A model generated the notes under the pieces. The model saw only the letters and a program-made list of their open reading frames with translations, was not told the DNA's origin and made no database searches. A stretch of DNA of 58,616 nucleotides, the filler included, from Dugesia japonica (taxonomy: Eukaryota): the NCBI GenBank assembly GCA_001938525.1. It is 6 parts of 6 records of this genome, joined end to end, with 100 filler letters (N's around TTAATTAATTAA, not from the genome) between each part and the next. Parts side by side here need not be neighbours in the genome. Positions count along the whole stretch, not along the records: positions 9,624 to 17,742 come from MQRL01595837.1; positions 17,843 to 27,275 come from MQRL01636682.1; positions 27,376 to 36,815 come from MQRL01642352.1; 3 more parts are not named here. One strand, 5' to 3'. Position numbers and translations under genes: made by a program. This document shows, piece by piece, positions 1 to 55,449 of this stretch (positions within the stretch are counted from its first letter, which is position 1; each line of letters opens with the position of its first letter).

Positions 1-70
1 TAATGAAATCTCAAATCCGATCAATAGTTAAGTCCAACAATTATTCTCACAATAATTGTAATTATAAAAT
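1..70 (+). repeat. 3' module of the hammerhead-associated dispersed repeat family
   Basis: ...CGATCAA...CAACAATTATTCTCACAATAATTGTAATTATAAAAT. Near-identical copies lie at ~11690-11740, 13770-13825, 14635-14730(-), 28115-28170(-) and 28626-28700. Confidence 0.85.
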
Positions 71-9623: not shown

Positions 9624-11556
9624 AAGTGCTTGTAAACAATGAATTTAAACAGATATTTTGAATATTAATTACATCATATTTTTTATTTTTAGACCAATAA
9701 AATCAGTATAAAAAACTACATATACATGCCAGTTAAATTTTAAGGGAATTTATGGGAAAAGTCAAATTTGTTGAAATTTTCAAGTTTTTTAATTCAAATT
9801 TAATTTTTTGAGAAAATTCAGATTAACACTTTACGTTGTTTAAATAATATGAAAATTTAAAATTTTTAAAATGAACTTTTTTTGGAAATCCTGGAGTGTT
9901 CAAAATTTTTGAAAAAGTATTTTCTATATGTCAGATTTCGAAGATTTTTAAACAATACTGCTAATAATCTTTGCTGATTCATAATATGTTAACCTAAAGT
10001 CACCAAAATTAATACTCGATGAAATAAATGAGGTTTTGTCACGAAAAAAATTGGTTTCGTGTATTTTTTGGCAACTTTTTATATTTTATCATAAAAAACT
10101 AATAAATGAATTATTTATTAATCGTTAGATAATTTTAAAATTTGTGGCTTTTTATTGAAAATAATCCATATATTTGATTGAATAAATTAAGTATAATGAA
10201 TTAATTAATTTTTAAAGTGTAATTTCATTAAAACTATGCTTTTGTGAGTAAATTTGATTGTTTTGAAAAAATTTTTTAAAGGTAATTTTGAAAATTAATT
10301 AAAAATTTTTATTGTTAAATTAAAATTATTAAAGCAAATTTATTAAGTATTGAAAATTTAAAAAAAACTTGTAACTATTCATTAAAAATATCCCATATAA
10401 TTAATTTAATAAATAATTTTCAAATAATTATCAGTGCTGGGTTTTGAAAACTCATCGAATCATTAACATAAGAATTCAAATTCATTACAACGATTTATTA
10501 ATATAACAAAACTAATAACAACACTGATTGAGTTTTTAAACAAATTAAATTCTTGTTTTAAGCTAGTAATCGTTTCTTAAGATTTTTAAAAATCTATTTA
10601 AAGTCATTTGATTTTTTTATTAAGATTTTTAAAATAAATTTTCAGTTTATTGATTAAAATTTTAATTTCAAAATTTAAAAAAATTACTTCTTAGTCATTG
10701 GATTTTTTATTCAGATTTTAAAATAAATTTTCAATCTATTTGTTAAAATTTAATTTCAGAAAACAATTACTTATTTGTCATTTAATATTTATTTCAATTA
10801 AAATCTTTTTCAAAAAAGATTTCAAGAAAAACAATCACCAACCACACAAAAGTTTCAACTTTACTTGCCGCTTAAATAGCCAAATTCTGAACCACTTAAT
10901 CTATAATGTAATAATTTCGTCGACGAAATTTAATCTTATTATGTAATGCACACAAAAGTGTGCCACCACCTATTTACATCAGAAACTTTTGAAATACTTA
11001 TGTAATAATTTTTGCTCGCCGGGAGAGTGGTTTTGGTGCAGTGCACCACAATCATCTTACTTCTAAACATTATCTAAACATCACGATAAAGAATAATAAA
11101 TTTTATTCTTATGTTTTTCGTCATTTCGCATGTTTTCTAACTTTTTCAAAATTAATTTAAGTAATTTGTTGTAACGAAAAATATTTTCTTAGGTGTGTAG
11201 TGACTATAAAAGTTTGCCCATCATTGCTTTTTATGATTTCAAATAAATAAAATAAATTTAGTCTATATTCTATGATTTCACCAAAATCTTTTCTATAACG
11301 TTCAAAATTTGCAGATTCTATAATAATCCATAAAACAACTAAATATTTATTTCATTAAATTCCATTTATAGATCAAATCAATAGCCAAAGAGATGAATTT
11401 GCCATGTAAAATCGTAATTGGTCATTTATTTTGTCTAAAAAGTGAGGTTTTTTAATTAATTACAGTTTTCATTTAAATAAATATTTTTTAAATTGATTTT
11501 TTATTCATTTAAAAAAAAGCCTTGATCAAAATTGTTTTTTATTGATATTTGATAAA

Positions 11557-11591
11557 AATTCTATATTTCGACCTTGTCTTCATCAGGAATT
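11557..11591 (-). ncRNA. Minimal type-I hammerhead ribozyme (intact core)
   Basis: Minus strand reads AATTC-CTGATGA-A-GAC(AAG)GTC-GAAA-TA-TA^GAATT. Stem I is AATTC/GAATT, stem II is GAC/GTC, and stem III is the palindrome ATAT. Confidence 0.85.
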
Positions 11592-12349
11592 GACTTTTTT
11601 GACGACTAAAAAATATCGAATTGTTATCAAATATCAATAAAAAAAACAAAAATTTTGAGCGAAGATTTTATTTTAAATGAATTCTATAAAACGATCAATT
11701 TGCTTATTATTATTCTCGCAATAATTGCAATTTTAAAATTTTTTTTTATATTGAAATACTTAAATTTGAAATAAAATTATTATTGATGATTTATTGACAT
11801 TATTTCTTTTCAAAGAAATTTAATTTGACAGTTTTTATCGTATATATTCTTAATCAGTGAAATATTCTTTATCGAATAGTACATGAATTATTAAATTTGG
11901 ATGAAACTTGAAAAAATTATTTTAATTTGTGTGGGTTAAACATCCTCAGGATTTTGGACCATGTTTTTTCAAATTTTCTGTCAAAATTAAGTTTGATGAT
12001 TTTAAATGATGTTTTCCTTGGTCAGTGAAAGATTATCTATCGAAAAATTTATGTTTCAATATGATTACTATATTCAATTATCTAAAATCCAAACATCGCT
12101 TCTAAGTTAATTGGTTGAGTGTACGATTTTGCATTGATTGGTTCAGCACTTGTGATTATTTTGTGTTTTATATGTGCGCATCCTACATCTCATTTTCTTT
12201 ATTTTCAATTATGTTCGTTGATTTTTGATATTCAAAGTATTTAAGTATTTAAGTATCAATCGCTCTCAATTAATAATTTGTCTCCAAAATTTTGCTTTAA
12301 TATTACAAATGTAATTTTCAACTTTTACATACGTTTTACTATAGACTTT

Positions 12350-12870
12350 TCGTACACGCTGGTATCCAAAAATCTTCTGCGTTTCTATTCCTCCAATTAT
12401 ATCTGGTGTCACTCTTTCTGCAACTAAGAAAGTAACCTATTTGCAAACTTCATCAATTATCACTCCAGTTCTAACTTTATCAACAACTTTAAGTGTACTA
12501 TTATTTGCACAACACAATCTTTCATTACTCATTTCTAAATAAACTTCTCGTAATTTATTTAAACAACTCAAACTCAAAACGTTAATTCCAGCGTTTATAA
12601 CTAATATTCATTCAACTTTATTTCTTTGAGTAACACTTTGTCTTCTTTGCCATTTATGGTACAAAATATTTGTTCTGATTTAATTATTCTTAATTAATTA
12701 TTTTATTTTTCTAGCGTCCCAAAAGTTTTAGAACACTTTAGAAATATGACCCCACATTTTGACTCCTTGAGAATAATTAATCACTTCATTTAACAAAGGA
12801 ATGGCTCCAACCAACTCTTCTGCTAGTGGAGCCCTGCTTTTTGGGTACTGTCTTCAAAAATCCTCTTTCT
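12350..12870 (-). mobile_element. Decayed Gypsy pol fragments
   Basis: PK.RAPL..VGA (integrase-like) and INYSQGVKNVG (RNase H end-like). Confidence 0.35.
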
Positions 12871-13183
12871 ATATTTCCTCATATCGTTCCATTGTATTTT
12901 ATAATATCTTGACATATTTATTGAATTTGTTTATGAATATAATGGATTTCAGTAGTTGCATAAGTTATTTATTTCAGGTTATTTCATATTTGAAATATGG
13001 TTTTAATTAGTTTTTGATATAGATATTTCAAAGAACTCAATTCAAGATTTTTCTCGATCTCTGTTTCTTGAATATTTCAAAAAAATGAATTTTAATTAGC
13101 TTACAAATATTTTGAAAAACAAATTTCGTTATTTAAAATTTATTTGCGAAGATCAAAATGATATTCTTCTATTTTCATAGATG

Positions 13184-13216
13184 GTTCAATATTTTGGCTA
13201 TGCCTTCTTCAGGAAC
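13184..13216 (-). ncRNA. Minimal hammerhead ribozyme, degenerate (G12A)
   Basis: GTTC-CTGAAGA-A-GGC(ATA)GCC-AAAA-TA-TT-GAAC. The catalytic GAAA is mutated to AAAA. Confidence 0.7.
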
Positions 13217-13413
13217 AACTATTGCTCAATTCATTCTGGTTATAAATGTTTAAATAGAAACACAATCTACATTAATCTAATTAAAATTAATTTTCATTGG
13301 ATACTAATCATAATATTAAATTTCAAATTTATTAAACATATTTTCGGTAAAATGGTGCAAACCATAAATAAATTTCTTTTTAGTAATTTCAATTTTAAAA
13401 TTTATTTTCTATA

Positions 13414-13449
13414 GTTCCTGAAGAAGGCATAACTGAAATATTCTTGAAC
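13414..13449 (+). ncRNA. Minimal hammerhead ribozyme, degenerate stem II
   Basis: GTTC-CTGAAGA-A-GGC(ATA)ACT-GAAA-TATTC-TT-GAAC. Confidence 0.65.
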
Positions 13450-13646
13450 CATCTATGAAAATAGAAAACATTGTTTTGATCTTTCCAATTGAAAATAAAT
13501 TTTAAATAACGAAATTTGTTTTTCAAAATATTTGTTTAATATAAAGATCAGTGGTAAAGTTAATTTTAAGAAAATAAAATTTAAAATGTAAATTTTAAAA
13601 TACTAAAAATAAATTCAACTAACTTGGTAATTATAATTAATTATTT

Positions 13647-13765
13647 AATTCATTTAATATAAAAGCTTTGATCAAAATTTTGGTTTTTTTTATTGATATC
13701 GAATTTTTATCTATTTTCAATAAAAAATACAAAATGTTGATCAAAGCTTTTATATTAAATGAATT
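13647..13765. repeat. Fold-back palindrome of the hammerhead-family downstream module
   Basis: AATTCATTTAATATAAAAGCTTTGATCAA ... TTGATCAAAGCTTTTATATTAAATGAATT. Confidence 0.8.
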
Positions 13766-13981
13766 CTATAAAACGATCAATGGTTATGTCCAACAATTAT
13801 TCATGCAATAATTGCAATTGTAAAATAATTATTTAATGTTGTGGAATTTTAAAAAAATGTTTTCATATTCANAATGAGAATTTTCAAATATTTCTGAAAA
13901 ATTTATTGTTGCTCACTTCTTTTCAAAAATCAATAAACCAATAGTTTTATAAAAGACTTTCTACTAATTCCAATGTTTTAG

Positions 13982-14235
13982 GTCGGAAAAATGAAAAATT
14001 TAAAGGTGAATTGATTGGATCAGGAGGATTTGGGGAAGTTTACAAATATAAAATACCAAATACAGATCGTGAAATTGCTATCAAACGAACAGAATTTAGT
14101 TCTAAAGATACAAAGAATATTGAAGGAAATATAAACAAATATGCATCTCGGATTCGACATAAAAATATTGTTCAATATTTTGGTGCTTTCATAAAATCTG
14201 TGGAACTTTATATTTATATGGAGCATATTCCTGGG
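13982..14235 (+). CDS. Exon of a Ser/Thr protein kinase (STE11/MAP3K MEKK2/3-like N-lobe)
   Basis: AG|...LIGSGGFGEVY..REIAIK..HKNIVQYFG..IYMEHIPG|GTAAC covers subdomains I-V and is bounded by splice sites. Confidence 0.85.
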
Positions 14236-14533
14236 GTAACTTTATTTACTATATCATTGATTAATTGGTTTCATTTGTTAATATACTCATAACAAGAATA
14301 ATGATAGTAAACATGATCACGCATATATTCCTCCAAAATACTTTGTTCAGGAAAATTCATAACAATTCAAACACTTTTCTTTAAAATATTATTTTTTGAA
14401 TAATTTTCTCTAAATTGACTATTAAAATATAAAATTATCAATAAACGACAATCAGAGTAAACTTCTTTTAGGTAAAGTTTAATTTCACCAATTTACAATA
14501 ACCATAGTTACAATTTAAATGAAAATTATAAAT

Positions 14534-14632
14534 TATGAATAAATAAAAGTATTGAATAAAAAGTATGAATAAATAAAAGTATTGAATAAAAAGTATGAAT
14601 AAATAAAAGTATTGAATAAAAAGTATGAATAA
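14534..14632 (+). repeat. 30-bp tandem repeat x3.3
   Basis: (TATGAATAAATAAAAGTATTGAATAAAAAG)3. Confidence 0.95.
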
Positions 14633-16258
14633 TAGTATTGTAATTACAAGAATTATTGTAAGAATAATTGTGGGGCAATTAGTTATTGATCGTATTTGAG
14701 ATTTCATTAAATTAAAAGCTTCGAACAAAATCCTGTTTATTTTATATTTATGTTAGTTTTTGTTAGTATTTCTAGCCAATTAGATAGGTTTAATCGATTA
14801 CGTAACAATATCAAACAGTCCAAATTTAGGTATAGTTTATTATGCAATCGACACATGCCCATAATGCAATCAAAATAATATTTCAAATTTATCACGCCAT
14901 CATTATAAGCGCATGACACTACTAACTTTATTAGTTAATTTCCTACTGACCTCTCGCGGAAAAAAATACTGGTGGTGTCAAATGGTGTAGTGGTTATCGT
15001 GGATGCATTGATTAGCAATTTTTGATACGATCAGAATTTTGAACAGATAATTTCTATTTTTTTTATTATTTTATTTTAATTAATGGTGGAATATTCTAGA
15101 AATTTTAAATTTTGTTTTAATATTTATTCAATTTTTAAAAAAAAATTTTTCCGAGATATTGTAATATTGGTGTAGAGTGGTATTGTAGGTGCACATTTTA
15201 TATCGTTATGGTATAAGTAAGGACAGGTTGAAAAAACGAAATTTGAGTCAAATGATGTATGTGTAGATTTTATTAATTTTTATGTTTTGAGGTTGGATTT
15301 GTGCTAGTCTAAGAAATAGAACTATACATTGCTTAAAAGAATTATGCCTAAAATGCGCCTGTTGGCTTTTAAAATGTGAGTACATGACACCGGGGCAATA
15401 AGTTTTTGCACTTTTATCGAAAAAGTGGTTTGTAGTTGTGTTAGCTCGATGAATTGTGATGAATTTGATATTGTTCGAAATGGAAGGTATTTATGCAAGT
15501 GATGGTAATTGTTTTGATGTGGTTTGTTGGATTATTAATTATTTCTTTGGAAAATAAAGGTTAATAATTAGTGTATATAGGGAAAGAATATATTTTTCGA
15601 GTTAAGATTTATTGTGTCGTAAAAACATGGTTGGATTCATATGAAATTTTTCTGGGTGTGTGAACTTTTTAAATATCATAGTGTAGCGGAGCGTAGGAGT
15701 TTAAAGATGTTTATTCGAGCAGTCTTGATATTTTGATTTCGGCCATCTTTTTGTTTAAAGCACTTGTTTATATGTGTTGCATGTATGTAACATTCATGTT
15801 ACAAGAGCAAGTTACATGTATATTTTATTGGTTTGGGCAGTCTAAAAATTCCCATGAATGTGACCTTAGGATGCATATGTGCTGCATTCTTATTATAATT
15901 ATTCAATGCGAAAAGAAAAAACTATATACAATAATAAACATTTATTGATGCAAATAAATTTATTATTAATTCTTCTTCTTTGATTTTTTGTTCATCTAAA
16001 TGATTATTTATTGGTTCCAGATATTTTTCTGCCTAATCTGGAATCAATTACAATATTTACAAACATATGCAAGTATATAAAGAGAAATGTTTATAAGTAA
16101 TTCATAATTTTAAAAATGTTATACTTAAAGAACATCTCAATCCAACAATATAAAATTATCAAGCAAATAAAAATATGCAACAAAGATAATAAAGATTACC
16201 AGAATCCAAATGATTGATACAAAATTGAATCAATCATGAATTAAAGCGATGCATTGAA

Positions 16259-16700
16259 AGTAAGTAGATATGAGCGCACCAAACCAGGGCCCCTCGAGGG
16301 AGGGGGCCTAACCCCACCATACCCCCGATGAGTCATCAAATTTTTATGGAGGTGGGTGATGAGTCATATGGTGCCCCTTAAAAAATTTTGGAGGGGGGTC
16401 ATGGGGTACCCCCAATAAATTTTTTAAAATTTTCCTTTTTTACAATTTTTTTTTTAATTTTTTATTAAAATTTTTTTTTTGAATTTTTTTTATAAAAGTT
16501 TTTTTTTGTTTTTCGATGAGTCTTAATTTTTTGAAAATATTTCTGTCAGAACAGAGACATCATACCTCCCCCTAACCCCCACCCTACCCCCACCCTCCGG
16601 TCATTTTGAATTTTGTTTTGATGAGTCATACTTTTTTTCGAAAATTTTTCTATGTCAGAACAAAGAATATACCCTCCCACCCTCACGAAAACACAACTTT
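16259..16700 (+). mobile_element. Putative Polinton/Maverick terminal region
   Basis: Starts AGTAAGTAG. It has G/C homopolymer tracts and repeated GATGAGTCAT motifs in an otherwise extreme-AT background. The family assignment is inference. Confidence 0.35.
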
Positions 16701-16974
16701 TTTTTGTTTAAATAAATTTTAAATAAGTTTTAATAATTGTTTTTTTTTTGTTTTTTTTTAATAATAGTATTTTTTTTATTTAAATAAATTTTTGCTTTTA
16801 TTTTTAATAATTTTTTTTTAAATTTTTTTCATTAATTTTTAATTAAATATTTTTTTTTAAATTTTGTTTTAATTTTATTTAATTATTTTTTAGGAATTTT
16901 TAAAATTTTTATTTTTAAATTTTTCTCTAGTTTTTTTTTCTTTTGTCATATTTTTTTAAATTTGTCGAATTTTT

Positions 16975-17120
16975 AAATTTGATACACTACTAAAATGTGA
17001 CTAAAGAAAACAAAATATTTGGTTACATTAAAAAATTTTTTTTTTATTTTTATTTTTATTATTTTTTTTAAATTTGATACACTACTAAAGAAAACAAAAT
17101 ATCTGGTTACATTAAAAAAA
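16975..17120 (+). repeat. Local duplication (2 copies)
   Basis: AAATTTGATACACTACTAAA...GAAAACAAAATATYTGGTTACATTAAAAAA occurs twice. Confidence 0.8.
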
Positions 17121-17742
17121 ATTTTTTTTTAATTTTTTAATTTACCAACTAAACATTATATAATCACAAACCAAAATAATGGATTTTTTTTATTTGAAAT
17201 TTTTTTTATTTAAAAATTTTTTTTGTTGGTAAGTTTAGTTTATTTGAAATTTTTTTTTTAGAAAATTATTTTTCTTATTATTATTTTTGTATTTAAAAAT
17301 ATTATTGAGTGACACATCAATGTGTCTTTATTTAAACTGCTTACCAAATACATTTCTATATTCTTTTTTNTTTGCATTTCGAAATAAAATCGCGTTTTAA
17401 AATTAAATTATTTTGATTACATAATCGATTACGTTCTAATTAAATTAAAGTTTATTGTTTTGATACAATTTAGACAAATAATTTTTTTTGGTGGGACATT
17501 TATGCAATTTGTAAAATAATTCATTGATTTCTGTAATTTATAAAAATTATTTTTTGTAGACTTCTATTTAATTTATTAAATATTTCACGACTTCTATGTA
17601 ATTTTTTTTTAAAAATTGGAATGAGTTCCATGTAATTTTGGTAATATTATAACTATCATCTAATTAATACAATTGAAATATCTATGTAAGATAACACACA
17701 TAAAAGACAATTATGAGCAAATTTATTTAAATCACACACACA

Positions 17743-17842
17743 NNNNNNNNNNNNNNNNNNNNNNNNNNNNNNNNNNNNNNNNNNNNTTAATTAATTAANN
17801 NNNNNNNNNNNNNNNNNNNNNNNNNNNNNNNNNNNNNNNNNN
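17743..17842. other. Artificial contig-joining spacer
   Basis: 44N-TTAATTAATTAA-44N. Confidence 0.97.
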
Positions 17843-19895
17843 AATAAACATTATGGAAGAATCTTGTGTTCTAACTTATACAATTACACTTATTTTTAAT
17901 TCTAATTAAAAGGTTTAACTATAAATTCAGTCTCTTTGGTTCTGTCAGAAAAAATTAATTGCATGGTCAAATTTGTTGAGATTTAAAATTTTATATTATT
18001 TTGAAATTTTTAAGTTAATGTAAAATAATGTGAATTTTAAATATTAAAAAAAGGTTTAATTTTAAAATATTTAAAAATAAATAAGAAAAAATTNNNNNNN
18101 NNNNNNNNNNNNNNNNNNNNNNNNNNNNNNNNNNNNNNNNNNNNNNNNNNNNNNNNNNNNNNNNNNNNNNNNNNAAGTTAAATATGAAAGAATAAAATTA
18201 ATAAAATTGAAACTAATGAAATTAATTTAAAAGTAATAAAATAATTTTTCAAAAAGAATATTTAAATTTTATAATCAAAAAATTTTCAAAGTTAAAGTTG
18301 AGTTTCAAATTGCTTAGCTTATTTAATTTGACATAGCCAATTTAAATTTTTATCTGTTTTTTTTAATAAATATTTCATGAATACTAAAACTCTGGAATAT
18401 AGAAGTGAGTGTCTTAGACTCTCCTAACATGTTCAATTATAAGTTTATGGAGAGTTAACAGAGATTATATTTTCAATAAAGATTATCGAATATTTATCAT
18501 TCATTAAAATACTTTTATGAACATTCAAAAACTTCAGTAAATTGTCCTATAAATATATCACTATTGGATGAAACCGAATCCAACTGAACTAAGAAGGATA
18601 ACTTTATTTGTCAATTAAATTATAGTTTTAACGCATTGCACTCCAAATTATTAACAATATTGACAGCAGTCTCTAAGGACCCCCGTGGTTCTCAACTTGT
18701 AAGAATTACCATTTTCACAAAATTAGAGGTTTAACGAATTAAATGGGGAAATATAATTATTTCTAAAATTGAAGGTAGCGAGGACATAATAAGTTGGTAA
18801 ACCAGTGATTTAGATAATTCTTTTAAACGTCATTAAAGATCTCCATTTTGGAAAATAGTTTGTATTATTTTTTTCGTTTAAAATGCCATATAATTGCATG
18901 ACTATCTATAAATAAAATCTTATCTTTTTATTCGTTTTATAGTATTCAGGGCCGGATGAGGAGTGGGTAGTGCAAACCGGGCAACCGTCCAGGGCGTCAA
19001 AATGTATTTGTAAAATCAAGCTACTTAAATATATAGAATCCAAAGTTTGAATTGCCATTGATACCAACTTTTTTCTATTTAAATGTTATCATCAAATTAG
19101 TTAAGTTACGACCGAAATGGCATAAATCCATAAAACAATATGTATTTCTGGAAGGAAAGTTCTACATTATATTAACTATTATTATTAGTTAAATTCAAAG
19201 TCTCACAAGTCTCCATAAATTGTTCATTGATTATTACAAGTCTTTTATTAAAATGAAAAATGATAAAGCACAATTCACAATATTCAAACAAATAATCTGA
19301 GAAATCNNNNNAAATATTTTTCAGAAATATTGATTTTTTAAATTCAAAAATACTTTTATTTTACATATCTTTATTTATTTTTAACCTAATTCTATAAAAT
19401 TATTTTTTTAATTTTCTAATTCACTATAATATAAAATATCGACTTTCATTTTAAAATGTCTTTATTATATATATTTAATTATTTTTAACGTAATTTTACA
19501 AAATAATTTTTATAATTTTATAATTCGACATAATATAATATATAGAATTTATTCAATTAATTTATATTGTAAAAAACCTGTTCTATATTTTAAAAGTTTA
19601 AAAAAACCAATTTTAATATTATAAATAAAAATATCAGATATTTGAAATCACAATTATAATATTTTCTAAAATTTAAGAAATTCTGTATTAGAGTTGAAAT
19701 ATACTTTAAATGACTACTGGCCTGGGTTACGCTAATGCAATTTTATATTAATTTTCAAAAATGGAGAACGGAAGGTGAGGGCGCCAAAAGATGTTTTTAC
19801 TCAGGGCACCTGAAAAGCGTAATCCGACGCTAACAATAGTTTTAAATAGTGAAAAATTGAATTCTGTAATTTGTAAATTTAAAACGTAAATATAC

Positions 19896-20038
19896 TGTGG
19901 ATGACGAAAATTTCCAATGCATGAATTAAAATCTCCTACAGTACTCCACAACATGACAAAACTGTCATGACTGGCCGACACAATGTGAAAATCATCAACT
20001 CTAATAGCTGATATTTCTTTAAAATGGCCCGATAAATT
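19896..20038 (-). CDS. FBXW10: FBXW10/CDRT1-like WD40 protein, exon
   Basis: TAG|NLSGHFKEISAIRVDDFHIVSASHDSFVMLWSTVGDFNSCIGNFRHP|GTA. It is in phase with the previous exon across a 44-nt intron. Confidence 0.8.
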
Positions 20039-20082
20039 CTACAGTTATAAATAAAAAACTAAAAAAATATCTAAATCAATAC

Positions 20083-20231
20083 TTTAATGTGATCTCCATT
20101 TTGAATATTCCAAACCTTAATTAGTCCAGATAAATCGCCAGATATGCATAACTTATTTGAAATAGCAACAGCTGTTACTGGATGCTTGTGCCTCATTGTA
20201 GCAAAACTATGTTTGTCTTGGTAACGCCATA
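20083..20231 (-). CDS. FBXW10: FBXW10/CDRT1-like WD40 protein, exon
   Basis: CAG|(L)WRYQDKHSFATMRHKHPVTAVAISNKLCISGDLSGLIKVWNIQNGDHIK|GTATT. The phase matches the exon ending at 24053. Confidence 0.82.
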
Positions 20232-20699
20232 CTGAAAATTATTAACCAATAATGTGTGCTAATGAAATGATTTTCTTAATAAAAATTAGATTAAATAAAT
20301 CAAATTGATAAAATTGATTATGATAATAATAATATGATAATAATCGATGAAATTTATAGTAATTTTACGACAAAATAGAAAAATATGTAAAATAATAATT
20401 AATAAGATAATTCACTTGTGAATTCAAACTTTAATCCAGTGGTTCTCAAACTTCTTTGGTTTCACAATNNNNNNNNNNNNNNNATATTCGTGCACCTTTT
20501 CAACTCATGCATGACATAATAATTTGTATGTTTCTTTTGTCATCACGAATTTTTATTTTCTTGGTTAAATCTTTTTTCAGAAATATTTATTTGATCCTCT
20601 TTTTCCTTTTTGATTGTGTTCAGTACTCGTGTTTTAATCTTCCTTTTCTTGGCATCTTCATGTGACTTTTGACATTATACACATACTTTACATCTTGGT

Positions 20700-21990
20700 C
20701 TAGATAACATATTAGAATTACTATGTTGAATTCCTGTTCTGTATTCTAATGCCAGTTCTGGCATTGTGACGTGATTAGTTTCTTCGTGGTCATCATGAAA
20801 GTTAGAGCTTTATGATCTATTCTAAGAGTAAATCTTTTTTACCGAACAAGTAATATTTGAAATGTATGCAGAAATAATAAAAAAGCCAATAACTCGTTTC
20901 GTGTGATCAGTATCCCTTTTCATGACACGTCATTGAGTGTCATTCAGACGAAACCACTCTCTTTCTTCTTTAGCTTTGTATGGCAATACAACCCCAATTG
21001 TATCGAAATTGACAGCTGTATCCAATAAAAATCCTTTGTTTATATCTGGATAACACAATATTGGCGCAGTCATTAGAGCTTTTTTCAGACCCCCAAAATT
21101 AAAGTTTATTTCATTGGTTCATTCTAATTTCTTGTCCCTTGGTCCGCTACATAACTGTTCTAAGATACTTGATTTTCTTGTATAATTTTCTGTAAATTTT
21201 TTGTAATTTCCTGTAGTAATTACAAATTCCGAAGAAACTTCGTAACTTCTTCACACAGTTAGGTTAGCTAAATGTTTTTATTACTTCTATTTTAGATGGA
21301 TCGGTTATAACACCATCACAGCTAATTATATGCCCAAGAGATTTAATTTTGCTTGAAGAAACTGACACTTTTTCGAATTTATTCTTAAACCAGCCTTCAT
21401 TATTTCCGTCAATACTCTGTCAATCACTTCATAGTGTTTATCTTTATTGTTCGTAAATATCAGAACGTGATCAAGATATACCATAGCTTCATTGATTTCA
21501 CCTACCACTTTTGTCATCATCTCCTGAAAAGCTCCTAGAGCCGCTGTGATACCAAATGACATTCTGTTAAAACAATATTGTCCGTGCTTTGTTGAAAACG
21601 CCGTTTTATCTTGAGTTTCTTCTTCAAGCTCTACCTGATAGTACGCATTTCTTAAATTTATTGAACTGAAATATTTTGTTCTATCCCACTTCTCCAGTAT
21701 TTCATTGACGATAGGCATCGGAAAGTCTTGTTTTTCTGTTATTGCATTAAGTTGTCTAAAATCCAAACATATTATTATGTCATTCTTTTCCTTTTTCCAA
21801 ACACAGATCAATGGGGTATTCCATTGGACGCTTAAACTTTGTTCGCGGTTAAGTGAGATATCTGATTTATAAATGAACTGCAAAGTCATTGGCGGTGGAA
21901 AGTATCAAAAGTAATCTCCTCACGGTACTTCTAAAACCGCTTCACATTCCCTTATTAAACCACGGATCCCAGTTTTAGAACCACTATTAT
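20700..21990 (-). mobile_element. Gypsy LTR-retrotransposon remnant (RT + RNase H), intronic
   Basis: ORF 21326-21889 has CLDFRQLN, FSSINLRNAYYQ, TAFST and YLDH (catalytic D lost). Downstream are APILCYPD and IDHKAL. A PBS-like TGGTTCTAAAACTGGGATCC lies at ~21964-21983. Confidence 0.9.
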
Positions 21991-24052
21991 AAAAGATAAC
22001 CAAAAAAGACAATTGAATTTAATATTCCAATAAAAACGAATAAATCAAATATTAAATAAAATAAAACCATTTATTGAAAAACAAAATATTTTACTAAAAC
22101 AATTAATTGAGTTTAAAATTAAATTAAACCAATGAGTAAAAACAGATAGTCCAACGAATATGTAAATCGCAGAGACAAAAACATCACTGTTATAAGAGTA
22201 ATTCATAGATGATGCATATCTGGGAGAATTTTTTAATTTAAATAATTTGGTTTATATTATAGAGCATTATATTAAAATTAACTCTTGAAATATTTTTAAA
22301 AATTATTTAGAATATATTATATTAAAAAAGTATATTAGAGATTTTTAAAAAAGAAAACATTTTTTGTCTAAAGTTTTTTTGAAAATTTAATTTGGTTTAA
22401 TTATTTTTTATATATTGTATTACATAAAAATTATTTTGAATAAAAATCTTTTAAATTATAGTAGGAATATTTTTTGAAATATTTATAGGAAGAAAAATGT
22501 TACCTTATTTTTAAAAATAATAAAAATTATTTGGTAAATTATTTTGAAAGATTATTGAAATGTATTTTTGTTTGTTTAAAAAGAAAATCGATATTTTTCA
22601 ATATAAATTTGATATTCTAAGATATGGATTATTTGTTTAAATATGATGGATTATTCTTACATNTTTCTAACTTTAATAAAACAATTGTGATAGTGAATAA
22701 AAATGATGGATAATTGTGAAGTTTTTAATTTAACTAATAACTGTTATGACAAAAATCTAATTAAAGTTAAATACAAATAATTGCTTACTATTCACATGCG
22801 ATTATTCTTGGGTTGTAATTAGAAAATTCTATTTACACTTTGAAAACCACGATAGAATGATCAAGTAAGTAATCCGCGGAAATTTCACATCATTTGAATA
22901 AACAAATTCAATTTCAATGTACAAATGCATTTAGAAGGTTTTTGGAAAGCTTTAATCGAGTGTTCACCTCATTTCGGTGGTCGCAAAATTAAAGTTTAAC
23001 CGAGTTAATTCCCTCAGAAATTTGTATAATTGAAACTGCCAGTACGACAGCAATCCAATTCTATACTATTTAAACGAAAAATCAGAAATCCAGAAGTAAA
23101 AGTGAATTTCTATTTTAAAAACCAGAATTATAACTAACAATTAAACATTTATTTTACATTAATTTTTTTTTCATTTGTCTTCTGAGTTTGGTCTAAATTA
23201 ACATTTTAGCCTCAAGAAAAATATTAGCCCAAAGAAAATTCTCAGTAAAATTATATTCTCGCTAAATAATAATGATTCTCAACGAGAATATCCTTTAAGT
23301 CAGGGGTGAGCAATTGTTTTGACGTGAGGGCCACATTGTGGATTCAGAGTAAAATGAAGGGCAGCACATAAAAATGATAAGTATCGAATTAACTTTACAC
23401 TTCGCAAAATTTTATATTATAACACGATACTAAAAACAAAAAAGCCTTACTCATATATCTAGGTGCGTTTGTCATAATGAAAATTTTTGGATATGTCTTC
23501 GATCGCGTCAAGGAAAAAATTTTTGTTTATGTAAGATTTACGTAAGTGTATTGACGGGTCTTTATTTGAGTACTCCTGTTCTAAATGAAGGGGTATCATA
23601 TGAATAATAAGGTTATTAAAAGTCACTATTTTCTAGTTTAATAAAATAATGTTCAATAAGAAATATGACCGGTATTTATTATATCATGGTACTGGCAATG
23701 TTTTTCATGAATAGGTTTTGTCAGTTACTCTCCCATTTAAAGTTACAAAAAGTAACTTATTACTGTATTATATTGTGATCAACCCAAAGCTTCTAACGAT
23801 CTAAAAACAGAGTGACTCTAAACAAAATTGACGCGCGCCCGTACTTTTTCAATAAGAGTCATCGAAACTGATGAAAATACCGGATAAATAATTCCTAGGT
23901 ATAGTGAGATTATTATAAAGATTAAATAAATTTTAAATAATAGCGATATCATACCTCAACATTATAAAAAGAAACTTTTTCTCATTTATTTGTGAAAATA
24001 TAGTAAATTTTGAAGTTTAAATATTTTACATAACAAATTCAAATCCACATAC

Positions 24053-24450
24053 ATTTACAAGTGCCATCAAAACTTCCAGATGCAAAAATTTCTTCACCAA
24101 TATCCAAATCTGATATTGTTGCTGAATGTCCATTATAAATTTTCAAGCATTTACCAGTTATTGAATCCCATCTTCTAATTGTCGTATCATAACTTCCAGA
24201 TAACACTTCCAAATCTTTATGACTAATAATAGTATTATCAGAATTAACAGCAAATTTCTTTCGAGATATTATTGTATTTGGCTTANNNNNNNNNNNNNNN
24301 NNNNNNNNNNNNNNNNNNTGTCCTCGGATACGATTTTTCATTAATTCTGATTGATTTCTTTTTTTATCAATAAATTGAATAATTTTGTTAGCGCCAGCTA
24401 CAGCTACTAATTGCCCTCCGTTATATGAAATAGTGCGCATTAGATATTTG
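24053..24450 (-). CDS. FBXW10: FBXW10/CDRT1-like WD40 protein, exon (contains N gap 24286-24318)
   Basis: AAG|(S)KYLMRTISYNGGQLVAVAG...SGSYDTTIRRWD..GKCLKIYNGH..SGSFDGTCK|GTATGT. Confidence 0.85.
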
Positions 24451-24879
24451 CTTTTAGAAGAACTTAAATAAATAATATTGTAATATTAAGTTGTTATAAA
24501 ACATTAAGTTAATAAATTTGGTTATAGTTAATGCATAATGATGTTAGCTGCAGGACTAATNNNNNNNNNNNNNNNNNNNNNNNNNNNNNNNNNNNNNNNN
24601 NNNNNNNNNNNNNNNNNNNNNNNNNNNNNNNNNNNNNNNNNNNNNNNNNNNNNNNNNNNNNNNNNNNNNNNNNNNNNNNNNNNNNNNNNNNNNNNNNNNN
24701 NNNNNNNNNNNNNNNNNNNNNNNAAAAAAAACAAAATGTTTATAATTTTTAAATTTTTAAATTAAATATTGATAACTGGTTTAATTTTATGAGCAAGAAC
24801 TTGGATATTTTTTTATTCTTAAATCTCTAGATACACTCAATTGTTTATACTCTCATTCAATATCATTAGTAATTCTTAG

Positions 24880-25190
24880 ACAAGAAATTTGTAAACAGTT
24901 TAATTGGACGGATTACAAATCCACAGAAAACCTTTTTGGTAAATTGTCATACAATAAGTTTTTGACCAAATGCTTCAAAGAGGTGTCAAATATTTGATGA
25001 CAGCATCCAGAAGATAAAAAATTCTGGACAAAATTTTGGACTTTTAATATCCGATGCAGCATCTTTTATGGTAGCTGCTGGCAAGACTTTAAAAATGTTC
25101 CATCAAAAGCTTATATATGCAACTTGCATTACTCATTTACTATACAATTGTGCGTTGAGAATTAAGTCACATTACAATTATGTTGATTGC
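24880..25190 (+). mobile_element. hAT-related (DUF659/CGGBP-type) transposase fragment
   Basis: LLISDAASFMVAAGKTLKMFHQKLIYATCITHLLYNCALRIK shows the D..A.yM..A and CxxH motifs. Confidence 0.7.
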
Positions 25191-25208
25191 TAGNNNNNNN
25201 NNNNNNNA

Positions 25209-26150
25209 GCCTTTCTTACTGTGTTTATAATTTCCTAACAATGATTGAAAAAATTAATAAGAACATCGTATATCCTTACCACGAAGAAAATAGCAAAAGG
25301 AAGATGAAAATTATATCAGAATAAAATTGCATTCAAAGAAACGACTATTTGTCATTTATGCAAAAAGAATATAGTTAAACTGGTTCGAGGGCATGAAAAT
25401 TTCACGGAAGAATACTTGGGTGCGGCATGCTCAAAATGTTATTTGAGTAAAGAATCTGATATGAATTCTCTATAGTCTTATAATCTGAGAGGTTATGATT
25501 TACATCATATTTCGAAATATTGTCTCAGTTAATTTTCTGATTGGAATATTTCTTGTATAAAACAACAAACGATAAATTCTTTTGTTTGATGGTGCACCTG
25601 AAAAAAATAACTAAAGTTCATTGATTTATAAATTTATCAACTCTTCGTTAAATGCTGCAATGAAAACAATTAAAACAACTCTACTAACAACAAAGGAGTT
25701 TAGTGATAATCCAATTATTATATCAAAAGAGATTTTCCTATATGAAATGGCAATAAGTTTACAAATACTAGAAAAAACACTAACAATGCAACCAATATGA
25801 AAAGCGGTCAATGAAAAATCATATCAGAAAACATTGGGAGTGTAAAAAATAATCGGATGTACGAATTTATTGAATTTTATGCTGGTTTATTTAAAATTGG
25901 ACGTCTTTTTGTTGACTGATTTCTTTCAACAATTCCGAGTCAAGTCTTTAAATCACAATAACGTGGAACTACTTACATTCTTTGAAATACCAGGAACTTT
26001 ACAAGATCCAATATAATTATTACTGGACAACGATATGTACATTTTCTTTGAAGGCGGAATCAGACGGGGTCTCAACTTTGTGCTTTCAGTTGAAAACACT
26101 GATTAATTATACGTAGATATCAATAATCGATACGGATTGGCATTAAGCTT
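25209..26150 (+). mobile_element. Polinton/Maverick-type family-B DNA polymerase pseudogene
   Basis: CHLC..VRGH..TEEYLGAACSKC (endonuclease VII-like Zn site), YNLRGYDLHHI, IFPYE, YLKLDVFLLTDFFQQFR, MYIFFEGGIRRG and YVDINNRYGLALS. Confidence 0.8.
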
Positions 26151-26261
26151 AATCCAGGATTATCTCGATTATAAATAAAAGAAATTTCTAAAAAACCATA
26201 AATACAATTAATTGTTTCCAGGAAAATATTTCACGTTGAACAATTTAGTTTAATTATTTAC

Positions 26262-26551
26262 CTTTCAAATATCATCAAAACACTATAACTTCCACAGAAT
26301 ACATTTCTTTCTTCTATTATTATGTTCTTTGTTATAATATCCTTATAGGCTACATCCATACTGTAGACTTGTCTAGAAAGCAATATTTGTGTATCATTTG
26401 TCAAATCATTTTGATTAGATTTTTCATGTAATTCTTCGGAAGGTTTCTTATTTTCAATATACATAATTGTATGAGTTTGCGGATTTAAATGAGGAACTGT
26501 AACATCTGTATCTCTTGCAAATCTTGGATCCGCTGGAGTTGAAGATACTGA
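26262..26551 (-). CDS. FBXW10: FBXW10/CDRT1-like protein, exon
   Basis: TAG|SVSSTPADPRFARDTDVTVP...AYKDIITKNIIIEERNVFCGSYSVL..|GTAAA. EERNVFCG.Y is recalled as characteristic of FBXW10. Confidence 0.82.
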
Positions 26552-27201
26552 CTAAATATAAATAATTTTGTTATATTTTATTATATATTTGTACAGAAAA
26601 CTACGGTTATGATAAAAAAAATCTAATAAAAATACAATTTATGCCACACTTTATCTAATAATGTCACAATTTATTTCAAAGTTTATAATACAATTTATAT
26701 AATTCATACTATAATTTATACTATACAATGTATATTATAATTTATGCTAAAGTTTATACTATTTATATAGCAGTTTGCATTGCATACACTGACGAATATG
26801 CATCTTATCAACTTTCATCTGCAACATAATAACTGAGTCAGTTTTTAATTAATCGCTTAACTAAAAAATGCTTATCAAGCTTGAATGTATCATAAAATTA
26901 TAATTCATAATGTCATTGTGAGTATATATCATTGTATGTATGCGATAGAAACTTGCATACTACTAATATAATTTATGTAATTTAAACAACAACATATACT
27001 ATAAGACTTATGAGTTATAAGTTATACAATAATTTATGCTGTAATTTATACTAAAATTTAACCTACAATTTTATAATTAATTAAACTTATAAATTAAAGT
27101 ATGAATTAAGTATAAATTTTATACGTCAATTTATAATACAGGTTTTGGCAGAAATATATTTAAAAATTTTCAAAATATATGTAAAATTTGTTTAAATTTA
27201 C

Positions 27202-27275
27202 ATGACATGGCACACTTTCAAAAAATGAATACATCGAAAGAACAAACGTTATCCAATGATATTGATGATACTCAA
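27202..27275 (-). CDS. Possible upstream FBXW10-like exon (truncated by contig end)
   Basis: Open frame EYHQYHWITFVLSMYSFFESVPCH|GTAAAT, in a phase compatible with the next exon. Confidence 0.3.
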
Positions 27276-27375
27276 NNNNNNNNNNNNNNNNNNNNNNNNN
27301 NNNNNNNNNNNNNNNNNNNTTAATTAATTAANNNNNNNNNNNNNNNNNNNNNNNNNNNNNNNNNNNNNNNNNNNN
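27276..27375. other. Artificial contig-joining spacer
   Basis: 44N-TTAATTAATTAA-44N. Confidence 0.97.
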
Positions 27376-27407
27376 ATACATATTACATGGAATTTTAATA
27401 TTTTCAG

Positions 27408-27433
27408 CTTCTACAAACAAGAAATATGGAAAA
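27408..27433 (+). CDS. DZANK1: DZANK1 probable micro-exon
   Basis: CAG|..STNKKYGK|GTTAA followed by a 50-nt intron, in phase with 27484. Confidence 0.45.
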
Positions 27434-27483
27434 GTTAATAAAAATTTCTATATTCCTTATTTAAATTGATATCCATTTAATAG

Positions 27484-27650
27484 ATGCCCGAATATCTTTC
27501 TAATTTGAATTTGGAGAATACCAATGATATTAATACAAGTTTGGTTAAATTTCATAAAAAAGAAGTTGAAGATGATAAAATTCCAACAAAACCATTAACA
27601 GATTCTAGTTATTTATCAATGAGATTGCAACGGGAAACCGATTTTTTAAA
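27484..27650 (+). CDS. DZANK1: Double zinc ribbon and ankyrin repeat protein 1, exon
   Basis: TAG|MPEY...SMRLQRETDFLK|GT. RxQRETDFLKC is a DZANK1 motif. Confidence 0.85.
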
Positions 27651-27700
27651 GTTTTTTCCCTTCTTATTGTTATTTATTTATCTTCGGTTTCGCTACATAG

Positions 27701-27914
27701 ATGTATATATTGCCTTGCACCAAGACCGAGTGATCCCTATTCGAAGTTTTGTAATAATTGCGGTCAAGCCATTCCTCCATTACCTCAATCACGTTTACCA
27801 CCACCCGAAAACGGTCAATTAGGTATGTGTATTCATTGCAGATCTACTGTTCCGATGAATATATTCAATTGTTTGGTTTGTGAAGCTCCACTAAATATAC
27901 AAAATCAACCTCAG
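27701..27914 (+). CDS. DZANK1: Double zinc ribbon and ankyrin repeat protein 1, exon
   Basis: After a 50-nt intron: CIYCLAPRPSDPYSKFCNNCGQAIPPLPQSRLPPPENGQLGMCIHCRSTVPMNIFNCLVCEAPLNIQNQPQ|GTTAGT, with four CxxC pairs. Confidence 0.92.
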
Positions 27915-28114
27915 GTTAGTAGTCATTTGTTAATTTTAATAAAGTTTATCGTTTATTTAATTTACAATTAATTTCCAAACGCATAAACAACTTTAATAGT
28001 GAATTTATTTACTGTCTGCAGTAAATTAAAATTTTTAAACGGTTCCATTACAAAATGTATTCATACAAAATATATTAGACATAATATTGATAAAATATAT
28101 TGAACAAAATATAT

Positions 28115-28500
28115 TGATTTTATAATTACAATTATTGCGAGAATAATTGTTGTCGTAACCGTTGATCGTTTTTCAGAATTCGTTAAAATAAAAGCTTCGA
28201 TCAAAATTTGTTTTTTTTTGGTTTTTGATAGTAATTCTATTTCATTAAAATAAGATAAAGCTTCGATCAAAACAAAATTTATTTGTAAAAAAGTTCAAAT
28301 TTTCGACAATAGTCTTCTTCAGGAACATGTTGGCTTCTTGAGATATTCAATGTAATAGATCTTTGTTACTAAATTCTTAAAATTTTATTGGTTTATTTTT
28401 TTAAAATTTAATGATTTTAATTTTTTATTTTTTTAAAATTTAATGATTTTTTATTTTTAAATCAACTCAAAAAATTTTCAAAAAAAATTTTTTTGATAAT
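28115..28500 (-). mobile_element. Most complete copy of the non-coding hammerhead-bearing repeat (PLE/retrozyme-like), in a DZANK1 intron
   Basis: It has an upstream module (shared with 36916-37151), then the hammerhead, a duplicated TTTTGATCGAAGCTTT module and the 3' CAACAATTATTCTCGCAATAATTGTAATT module. Confidence 0.7.
28293..28326 (-). ncRNA. Minimal type-I hammerhead ribozyme (intact core)
   Basis: GTTC-CTGAAGA-A-GAC(TATT)GTC-GAAA-AT-TT^GAAC, with the palindrome AATT as stem III. Confidence 0.85.
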
Positions 28501-28859
28501 TTTTTACCAGAAAATCATCATATTACATGGAAAACATTAGGAACAGGCTACATTTCTACCCTTCACAGAAAGAAANNNNNNNNNNNNNNNNNNNNNNNNN
28601 NNNNNNNNNNNNNNNNNNNNNNNNNATCTTATTTTAATGAAATCTCAAATGCGATCAAATACGATCAACAATTATTCTCACAATAATTGTAATTATAAAA
28701 TCATTTTTATAATTCGACAAATTTAATTTTTTTTTAATTTCAATATTAGAGTAGGATTTATTTTTTGATTTAGATTCCTTTGTATTTTTGTAATCGGTAT
28801 TTTTAATTCCTGAATTTTCGTGAGAATTCATGAATTCATGAGAATTTTGAATATATTGA

Positions 28860-36915: not shown

Positions 36916-37285
36916 TTTTAAAAATTTTCAAAAAAAATACAAAAATTTAAAATTAAAAAATTCTAAGTATAATATATCTAAATTATCTACAAAGACTTTT
37001 TTGTATTAATCAAATAAATTTTTTTGAAATTTTTTGAAATTTTTTGAGTTGATTTAAAAATAAGAATTAAATTCATTAAAATTAAAAGGTAAAAAAAATA
37101 AACCAATAAAATTTCGATAAAATTTAAAGAATTTAGTAACAAAGATCTATTNNNNNNNNNNNNNNNNNNNNNNNNNNNNNNNNNNNNNNNNNNNNNNNNN
37201 NNNNNNNNNNNNNNNNNNNNNNNNNNNCTTTTTTACAAATAAATTTTATTTTGATCGAAGCTTTTTCTTATTTTAATGAAATCTA
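36916..37285 (+). repeat. Another copy of the hammerhead-bearing repeat; the ribozyme position falls in an N gap
   Basis: Both flanks of gap 37152-37227 match the reverse complements of the flanks of 28293-28355. Confidence 0.75.
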
Positions 37286-54400: not shown

Positions 54401-55449
54401 GTAAGTTTGATTGAATCTACTTATTATTTAATAGTAGATAATAATAATCATTTTGTGTTACTGATAACTTACTGGAAAAAAATGAATATGAATACATGTA
54501 AATAAATATTTTTGAATTTACAATTTCATTCTAGACAAATTAAAGTTTAAAGCCAATTTTCTTTTCAATAAAATATTATAAACAATCAAAACGAATTTAA
54601 AAATGTCAAAACAAAAACCATTACTTTTCAGTGTTTTTTAGTTTTACAAATGTACCAAATTTTGAATTCGAACTGTTTGGAAAATCGTCTGAAGACAATT
54701 TATTTTTCAATATCAAAGCAATTAATTTTAGACATGTTATTTGACAAAATTAAAGGATAACATTACAATAAGGCCTTAATTTGCCTAGTTAATTCTGCCC
54801 AGATAACATTTTACAGTATTTTGAATCACCATTTTTCTCATTGGTATCTTTCTCTGATTTTGGTTTTGAATCCAAATTCTGAGAAGGAACTCCATTTTTA
54901 ATATAACTGAACTTTTCACCTTTGTTATTTGCTTGGTTTGTATAGGCGTATAACTCTCTTATTTGATCATCATCTCGATTAGAAATTGTGATTATAATAG
55001 TATATGCTGAATCAATATTTCTTCCAAAACCAAAATCTGGAGAAAAATTCCAGATTTCAAACGTTTTAAAACTTCCAATTTCAGTTACAAATTTGTTTTA
55101 ACAATTTTTATTCATTTTAATTATTTTATAATAATTTATTTAAATGTAGCAATAATATTTCAAAATTAATTTCTTTTTATTTGAAAATCGATTCATTGAA
55201 ATAATTGGTCAATAATACATTTTATATTAATTTGAACAATGTAAAATATACATAAACATTAAAGTGCCCAGAAATGAATTTGAAAGTCAATTAATTTCTC
55301 CAAAATGAATTTAATATTATCATTTATACTATTTGAAAATGAAACTAAACGAAATTTTAAAATAACTTTCTTTAACAATTGCAACGACGCAAATCGTGGT
55401 GTTAGTGTATAGTATTGTATTCATAGATAAATATTTCGATACAATTTTA

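What the first reader, a model, noticed from the sequence alone, without database searches (positions are those of the whole stretch)
11557..28326. Family of minimal hammerhead ribozymes with compensatory covariation in a non-coding dispersed repeat (retrozyme/PLE-like system)
Seen: four copies (11557-11591 -, 13184-13216 -, 13414-13449 +, 28293-28326 -) on two different contigs share stemI-CUGA(U/A)GA-A-stemII-GAAA-stemIII-UH-stemI'. The stems covary: I is AATTC/GAATT vs GTTC/GAAC, II is GAC/GTC vs GGC/GCC, and III is the palindrome ATAT vs AATT. Known: Penelope-like elements and retrozymes carry minimal type-I hammerheads whose palindromic stem III favours dimeric cleavage, and an extra nt after A9 is a tolerated variant. 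Inference: this is an abundant non-autonomous self-cleaving RNA family, perhaps mobilised by PLE RT of the kind decayed at 55450-56620.
Basis: partly seen in the sequence, partly recalled or inferred. Interest (0 to 1): 0.85.

Follow-up and report, generated by a model that had tools for sequence, protein, structure and literature searches.

The report
Penelope retrotransposon ends carrying minimal hammerheads
The four small hammerhead-ribozyme motifs are real (two intact, two decayed), but they sit in short, likely dead end-pieces of a very common Penelope-like jumping gene, a kind described in 2014, and nothing here shows a separate self-cleaving RNA family.

Summary
All four motifs lie at the stated coordinates. 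Two are intact minimal type-I hammerheads (11557-11591, 28293-28326). One has G12 changed to A; one has a broken stem II and a 3-nt insert. The intact pair exceeds chance (0.005 expected per window). The three double changes are real but rest on four related copies.

The carrier repeat is not simply non-coding. About 51 nt past the predicted cut lies an ATG, and the repeat's tail translates to the N-terminus of an 843-aa RT plus GIY-YIG Penelope-like protein (P0004). The C-terminus of that endonuclease lies 175 nt from copy 4, and the decayed RT at 55416-56540 matches it at 45-91%.

Arms end just past the ATG (4 of 10) or at codon 22 (6 of 10). They form inverted pairs with a one-sided tail (3 of 3 assessable), one with a 12-bp target duplication. 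This is published Penelope pLTR anatomy. About 29,000 contigs per run match. RNA reads cross the predicted cut with no pile-up of ends.

Verdict: new member of a known kind, likely inert stubs, not a tandem retrozyme. The scan found this kind before on other genomes.

The parts
11557..11591 (-). Copy 1: intact minimal hammerhead (stem I 5 bp, stem II 3 bp, extra A after A9, palindrome AUAU, A17); in the inverted arm of insertion A
11504..11556 (-). Rest of inverted arm A; ends just past the ATG at 11508, no tail
11613..11738 (+). Direct arm of insertion A: starts at the helix III palindrome, ATG at 11677, carries the tail
13103..13216 (-). Copy 2 (13184-13216, natural G12A) and its 3' flank; inverted partner of copy 3; a more distant subfamily not tied to P0004
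13414..13535 (+). Copy 3 (13414-13449, broken stem II, 3-nt insert) and its 3' flank
13638..13837 (.). Insertion B: inverted arm 13647-13699 (-, no tail), direct arm 13696-13824 (+, starts at the palindrome, ATG 13759, 22 open codons), 12-bp target duplication at 13638-13649 and 13826-13837; holds only the 3' end of the hammerhead
28293..28326 (-). Copy 4: intact minimal hammerhead (stem I 4 bp, stem II 3 bp, palindrome AAUU, U17)
28239..28292 (-). Spacer from copy 4 to the ATG at 28245; arm ends at 28239 without tail
28327..28500 (-). Sequence upstream of copy 4, shared with the copy at 37025-37151; inferred 3' UTR part of the pLTR
28118..28238 (-). Second pLTR stub with tail, abutting copy 4's arm; element end at 28117/28118
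28501..28575 (+). C-terminal piece of the GIY-YIG endonuclease, 80% identical to P0004 residues 800-824 (E 8e-8); start of the direct arm of insertion C
28626..28699 (+). Tail of the direct arm of insertion C, after a 50-N gap; ATG at 28637
37025..37282 (+). Fifth pLTR copy, close to copy 4 on both sides; a 76-N run lies where the hammerhead would be; ends without tail
14638..14757 (-). pLTR stub with tail, no recognisable hammerhead
1..68 (+). Tail at the window's start; 12 of 18 residues identical to the P0004 N-terminus
55416..56540 (-). Decayed Penelope-like RT (stops, frameshifts, MITE insert); six pieces, 45-91% identical to P0004

Best explanation
The motifs of copies 1 and 4 are minimal hammerheads in the pseudo-LTR of a high-copy, endonuclease-bearing Penelope-like retrotransposon, and the window's copies are likely dead, 5'-truncated insertion stubs that probably do not cleave. 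Shown: the order hammerhead, about 51 nt, ATG, 22 codons matching the start of an RT plus GIY-YIG protein; two element ends about 60 nt apart; inverted arm pairs with a one-sided tail; a target duplication; an endonuclease end beside copy 4. Inferred from published Penelope work: the element's protein nicks AT-rich DNA and starts reverse transcription inside its own RNA at two sites near the ORF start. That gives arms with and without the tail, and early termination with fold-back gives the inverted stubs. In full-length tandem elements the hammerhead would cleave weakly, as a dimer through the palindrome or with help from the element's protein. After insertion the motif likely decays like its flanks. 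Copies 2 and 3 likely come from a related Penelope family whose ORF I did not find.
For: P0004 is an 843-aa RT plus GIY-YIG protein. Its residues 1-18 score 72 and 68 on two tail copies, above all 1000 shuffled queries (max 51); 5 of the 6 tail copies rank in the top 6 of 109,970 positions. Its residues 800-824 match 28501-28575 at 80%. In RNA run X22, 204 reads leave the window at 28239 and continue with the ORF start, and 18 reads skip 28153-28238 straight into the tail (tables 5 and 7). Both DNA-like runs show a sharp end at 28117/28118 with mixed AT-rich flanks (331+336 and 311+334 contigs, agreement 0.44-0.46), and X2 shows a second set at 28183 (282 contigs). 4 of 10 arms end just past the ATG and 6 of 10 at codon 22; in 3 of 3 assessable two-armed insertions only the direct arm has the tail. 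12-bp duplication at insertion B. All four traits that Cervera and de la Pena list for min-HHRs are met. Arkhipova 2013 describes the same pLTR, tail, ORF-start and inversion layout. Copies 2 and 3 differ by 3 of 33 letters plus an indel in the motif, against 4 of 80 plus 3 gaps downstream, so the motif is not protected after insertion.
Against: No single record shows ORF end, UTR and hammerhead on one strand; the 50-N gap at 28576-28625 hides it, and the DNA of P0004 could not be fetched. Copies 2 and 3 match none of the 41 Penelope-like proteins tried. One tail copy (14638-14757) is not in the top 15 of the N-terminus scan. A convincing target duplication was found at only 1 of 5 boundary pairs tested. 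The GIY-YIG Pfam score (21.6) is just under its cut-off of 22.6. Stem II (3 bp) is shorter and the tail (about 60 nt) longer than typical. Only 15 of 62 joints were shown, so tandem derivatives elsewhere in the genome are not excluded.
Confidence: 0.9

Rival explanations
1. A non-autonomous retrozyme family: tandem hammerhead repeats that self-cleave, circularise and are copied in trans by the Penelope RT.
For: High copy number and presence in RNA. A 2026 preprint argues that animal retrozymes derive from Penelope pLTRs. One contig in X1 has a joint from 28329 to 28294 with 24 letters between, which could be a short direct repeat of the motif (table 5c; kind of joint not shown).
Against: No tandem of the unit in the window. 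Copies are inverted pairs with different junctions and include ORF pieces. Retrozyme hammerheads are canonical and sit in 150-450 bp tandems (passages). No pile-up of read ends.
Confidence: 0.06
2. [quoted passage not shown]
For: 3 of 3 tailed arms of the copy-1 subfamily with a visible 5' end (11613, 13696, 28238) begin within 5 nt of the predicted cut.
Against: In the copy-4 subfamily, summed contig depth does not fall at the cut (1.71M to 1.79M in X2) and RNA reads cross it. The palindrome itself offers microhomology for fold-back. The arm at 28238 may have been cut short by a later insertion. In an Anolis element cleavage was not needed in vitro and no RNA-seq ends were found at the cut.
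Confidence: 0.12
3. Chance look-alikes of the short hammerhead core in AT-rich DNA.
For: Rfam finds nothing; the stems are short (-2.0 and -4.6 kcal/mol for the two intact copies); the copies are related, so not independent.
Against: 0.005 perfect motifs expected per window against 2 seen; paired double changes between subfamilies; the motif sits where Penelope elements carry it.
Confidence: 0.01

Closest known systems
Minimal hammerheads (min-HHRs) in pLTRs of metazoan Penelope-like elements (Cervera and de la Pena 2014, PMC4209133; parts 1-3 of 4 of the text and parts 1-2 of 3 of the supplement read)
   Same: Type-I layout, CUGANGA core, extra nucleotide after position 9, G10.1-C11.1 pair, palindrome at 15.2-16.2, helix I of 4-5 bp, mostly single truncated copies, pairs on opposite strands 100-700 bp apart. 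The Nematostella (2) and Crassostrea rows of Fig. S3 are close in sequence.
   Different: Stem II is 3 bp, at the short end (the C. briggsae row also has 3 bp). This exact family is not among the 56 rows of Fig. S3.
Insertion units of EN+ Penelope-like elements with inverted pLTR and optional tail (Arkhipova et al. 2013, PMC3846280, passages; Craig et al. 2021, PMC8557442, passages and section 11)
   Same: pLTR overlapping the ORF start, extended to 22 codons by the tail; adjacent inverted 5'-truncated copy; tail on one side only; target duplication of about 10 bp; palindrome at the inversion junction; assembly gaps at such structures.
   Different: The pLTR proper ends 2-3 codons into the ORF (12 in Pen2a_Av) and the tail is about 60 nt (30-40 typical).
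Poseidon element PAc of Anolis carolinensis (Frangieh et al. 2024, PMC11167929; parts 1-2 of 4 read)
   Same: Hammerhead at the pLTR-ORF junction; two element ends near the ORF start; an AC-rich stem-loop near the end (a 9-bp hairpin here); AT-rich targets; no RNA-seq ends at the cut.
   Different: In PAc the start codon lies inside the hammerhead and priming is 111-118 nt into the ORF; here the ATG is about 51 nt after the cut and the ends lie about 6-9 and 66 nt into the ORF. No biochemistry here, and the hairpin shows 0 of 9 pairs with double changes.
Non-LTR retrozymes of animals (Cervera and de la Pena 2020, PMC7229834, passages; Li et al. 2026 preprint, parts 1 and 3 of 5)
   Same: Type-I hammerhead in a short, AT-rich, high-copy repeat linked to Penelope elements.
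   Different: No head-to-tail tandem in the window, minimal rather than canonical motif, ORF pieces attached, circles not shown.
Nematis and Hydra clades of Penelope-like elements (Craig et al. 2021)
   Same: P0004 has a C-terminal GIY-YIG, a cysteine linker before it (CxCX5C as in Hydra, spacing like the Nematis rows seen in the supplement) and DKT in place of DKG.
   Different: P0004 appears to keep the CCHH motif that the Hydra clade lacks, and its RT core differs by eye from the Hydra rows seen. No tree was built, so the clade is open.

Membership tests
Penelope min-HHR | Intact catalytic core CUGANGA / GAAA / UH in type-I order | tested here: met
   Met in 2 of 4 copies; copy 2 has G12A, copy 3 has broken stems
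Penelope min-HHR | [quoted passage not shown] | tested here: met
   4 of 4
Penelope min-HHR | G10.1-C11.1 pair | tested here: met
   G-C in 3 of 4, G-U in copy 3
Penelope min-HHR | Palindromic 15.1-16.1 in place of helix III | tested here: met
   4 of 4
Penelope min-HHR | Families with compensatory changes | tested here: inconclusive
   3 of 10 pairs with double changes in only 4 related copies; no genome held for more copies
Penelope min-HHR | Weak self-cleavage as dimer or with protein help | not testable with these tools
   Needs a bench assay; RNA reads show no pile-up of ends
EN+ Penelope-like element | One ORF with RT and C-terminal GIY-YIG | tested here: met
   P0004 (GIY-YIG 21.6 bits against cut-off 22.6, E 2.8e-4); both its ends and its RT match the window
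EN+ Penelope-like element | pLTR overlaps the ORF start; optional tail | tested here: met
   met for the copy-1 and copy-4 subfamilies, not shown for copies 2 and 3
EN+ Penelope-like element | Adjacent inverted 5'-truncated copy | tested here: met
   4 inverted arm pairs: A, B, C and copies 2/3
EN+ Penelope-like element | Target-site duplication | tested here: inconclusive
   12 bp at insertion B; only short or low-complexity matches at the other 4 boundary pairs
EN+ Penelope-like element | Full ORF flanked by two direct pLTRs | not testable with these tools
   No full copy in the window, no genome held, DNA of P0004 not available
Non-LTR retrozyme | Head-to-tail tandem of 150-450 bp hammerhead units | tested here: not met
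   None in the window; rest of the genome not examined
Non-LTR retrozyme | No protein-coding sequence | tested here: not met
   ORF start and endonuclease end attached
Non-LTR retrozyme | Canonical hammerhead with loop 1-loop 2 contacts | tested here: not met
   Minimal motif; no Rfam match
Non-LTR retrozyme | Abundant circular RNA | tested here: inconclusive
   The runs laid were oligo-dT and cDNA libraries, which would miss circles
Hydra clade of PLEs | CCHH motif absent from the endonuclease | tested here: not met
   P0004 shows CxxC before YIG and two later histidines, by eye
Nematis clade of PLEs | Placement in the RT tree | not tested
   No reference set held; motif resemblance only

The most novel reading that the evidence does not exclude
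In the copy-1 subfamily the hammerhead cuts the element's RNA in vivo and the cut end becomes the fold-back junction: 3 of 3 tailed arms with a visible 5' end start within 5 nt of the cut. A genome with thousands of such junctions would give the first genomic record of what the Penelope hammerhead does, which Craig et al. 2021 call unclear.
Probability: 0.12. Interest if true: 0.55.

Novelty: new member of a known kind. Interest (0 to 1): 0.16.

Why it matters
As found, it matters little: it is one more Penelope family with the hammerhead that such elements are known to carry. It has modest use as a test case. The family is very abundant, has a near-intact protein on record (P0004), two clear element ends and at least two hammerhead subfamilies. 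So junction positions could be counted genome-wide to ask whether cleavage shapes insertions, which is still open.

Tried and rejected
Rfam cmscan of the whole window at E up to 10: 0 matches; minimal motifs fall below the models. No whole genome is held, so the genome-wide scan and R-scape test could not be run. An exact pattern for this motif found 0 matches in metagenome contigs and 0 in viral contigs. The search for related loci with P0004 gave 2 loci with only a 27% GIY-YIG match; neither shows a hammerhead core. The look-up of sequencing runs: no RNA holder listed on record for 9700-13860; the RNA runs laid were added by species label. RNA run X21 gave depth 2-3 over the motif and mostly poly-T artefacts, so it is uninformative. 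None of the 40 shown variant rows lies inside 28293-28329, but 130 rows were not shown, so I do not count this as proof of core conservation. Summed contig depth was not turned into a copy number, as the tool warns. Free co-folding of two copies did not give the helix III dimer; energy models do not capture it, so this is no evidence either way. The tail hairpin has no compensatory change. The organism was not identified; a search for Penelope, hammerhead and planarian listed 3 papers, none read. Three paper searches and a search of one supplement for two short tail motifs (0 hits) did not show this family, but Repbase and Dfam were not available, so it may already be catalogued. Supplements of the 2026 preprint were not seen.
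Full report
Setting. The window is six AT-rich contigs (about 25% G+C) joined by 100-nt spacers. It comes from an animal: it holds a double-zinc-ribbon gene with relatives at 68-89% local identity. I did not identify the organism, and no whole genome is held. Copies 1-3 are on the second contig and copy 4 on the fourth.

The motifs. All four are at the stated places. A descriptor after the published minimal hammerhead finds two perfect motifs, copies 1 and 4. It finds copy 2 with one mismatch, G12 to A, and does not find copy 3, which has a C-A mismatch in stem II and a 3-nt insert. In 575 simulated windows the mean was 0.005 perfect and 0.049 near-perfect motifs. For copies 2 and 4 the hammerhead fold is the predicted minimum-energy fold of the motif alone; with 30-nt flanks it survives only for copy 4. 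Three of ten pairs change on both sides. That is three events among four related sequences: real, but no statistical proof. Rfam finds nothing.

The carrier. Self-comparison shows the motifs at the 5' end of a dispersed unit with further, truncated copies at 1-70, 11613-11748, 13641-13835, 14638-14757, 28103-28271, 28629-28703 and 37030-37282. A search with the decayed RT returned P0004, an 843-aa protein with RT and C-terminal GIY-YIG, 85% identical to the query piece. Laid back on the window, P0004 matches three kinds of place: the decayed RT at 55416-56540 (six pieces, 45-91%), the endonuclease end at 28501-28575 (80%, E 8e-8), and, with its first 18 residues, the tail of the repeat. The last match is short, so I tested it. 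Five of six tail copies rank in the top six of 109,970 positions, and the best two (72 and 68) beat all 1000 shuffled queries, maximum 51. An ATG, intact in 9 of 10 arms, lies 51-53 nt after the predicted cut in copies 4 and 1 and is in frame with that N-terminus; two tails still read 22 open codons that match it closely.

Insertion anatomy. Of 10 arms aligned, 4 end a few letters past the ATG and 6 end at codon 22, about 60 nt further. In insertions A, B and C the inverted arm lacks the tail and the direct arm has it. B is flanked by a 12-bp duplication; the other four boundary pairs tested gave nothing convincing. Arkhipova et al. 2013 describe this layout: a pLTR that includes the first codons, a tail extending it to 22 residues, an adjacent inverted pLTR, a 9-bp duplication (passages). 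Craig et al. 2021 give it as typical (passages). Frangieh et al. 2024 explain the tail as the stretch between two internal priming sites near the ORF start, in an AC-rich stem-loop. A 9-bp hairpin lies about 15 nt before the long end here, without compensatory changes.

Genome-wide view from reads (stretch 28060-28575, 80% likeness). 29,561 and 28,571 contigs of two DNA-like runs lay on 516 bases, so the family is very abundant; the tool warns against reading a copy number from depth. Hundreds of contigs end at 28117/28118 in mixed AT-rich sequence, which marks the long end; 282 contigs of X2 leave near 28183, which fits the short end. In the oligo-dT RNA run X22 (a quarter read, 3064 records, 94% running on into other loci), 204 reads continue from copy 4's spacer into the ORF start. 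This ties hammerhead and ORF together in other copies. Reads lie on both strands and cross the predicted cut with level depth (578 and 554 in the neighbouring bins). No place shows a pile-up of ends. This fits passive transcription of many dead copies; it does not show that this locus is expressed, and such a library would miss circles. Another 100 reads share the motif but have a different upstream sequence, so more subfamilies exist.

How it likely works. Shown: anatomy, coding link, two ends, abundance. Inferred from published work: the element's protein nicks AT-rich DNA, primes inside its own RNA, often stops early and folds back. The stubs so made carry one hammerhead each. None has a same-strand neighbour for the dimer that minimal motifs need; a single motif of this class did not cleave in vitro. 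In the pair 2/3 the motif has decayed as fast as its flank. So the window's copies are most likely inert.

Against, and open. No record shows ORF end, UTR and hammerhead on one strand. Copies 2 and 3 share the motif, the inversion and a short downstream word with the others but match none of 41 proteins. Tandem derivatives elsewhere are not excluded. One point is odd: the three tailed arms of the copy-1 subfamily whose 5' end is visible all begin within 5 nt of the cut. This could record cleavage, but the palindrome offers a ready fold-back site and the copy-4 subfamily shows no such break.

Comparison and verdict. It works like, and is a member of, the Penelope minimal hammerhead class of 2014; the four traits listed there are met in the intact copies. 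It fails three tested features of non-LTR retrozymes. P0004 mixes a Hydra-like DKT and linker with a kept CCHH motif; its clade is untested. Earlier notes of this scan reached the same reading on other genomes; I had stated mine before seeing them. New member of a known kind; interest 0.16.

Noticed in passing
window 55807-56064: A 258-bp element with near-perfect 16-bp terminal inverted repeats and an 8-bp target duplication sits inside the Penelope RT, just before its YIDD motif. An 8-bp duplication suggests a hAT-type MITE (recalled).
   Followed up: partly
window 21326-21904 (-), 44926-45414 (-), 50525-51112 (+), about 12340-12560 (-): Pieces of LTR retrotransposons: RT (Pfam RVT_1, E 2.7e-24); gag-like, integrase-like and protease-like pieces judged by eye only.
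   Followed up: no
window 52472-52867 (+): ORF that looks by eye like the N-terminal DNA-binding part of a mariner-type transposase; Pfam gave only a weak unrelated hit.
   Followed up: no
window 13945-14292 (+), 27484-27971 (+), 19748-20038 (-), 24039-24485 (-): Host exons: a protein kinase (PF00069, E 4.8e-12), a double-zinc-ribbon gene (PF12773; the DZANK1 name is recalled), and WD40-like pieces.
   Followed up: partly
window 13402-13414 (+) and 13217-13224 (-): Just upstream of copies 3 and 2 is a pyrimidine run or TAG that looks like a 3' splice site; in Drosophila virilis Penelope an intron ends at helix I.
   Followed up: no
P0004: The protein combines DKT and a CxCX5C linker (Hydra-clade traits) with an apparently intact CCHH motif; about 15 close unnamed relatives share the linker. 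It may be a poorly described Penelope subclade.
   Followed up: partly
window 28329 to 28294, run X1: One contig joins these places with 24 other letters between; it could be a short tandem of the hammerhead at one locus (table 5c).
   Followed up: no
window 40055-42425, 37777-37925, 22324-22702, 48593-49002: Other dispersed and inverted repeat families unrelated to the hammerhead unit.
   Followed up: no
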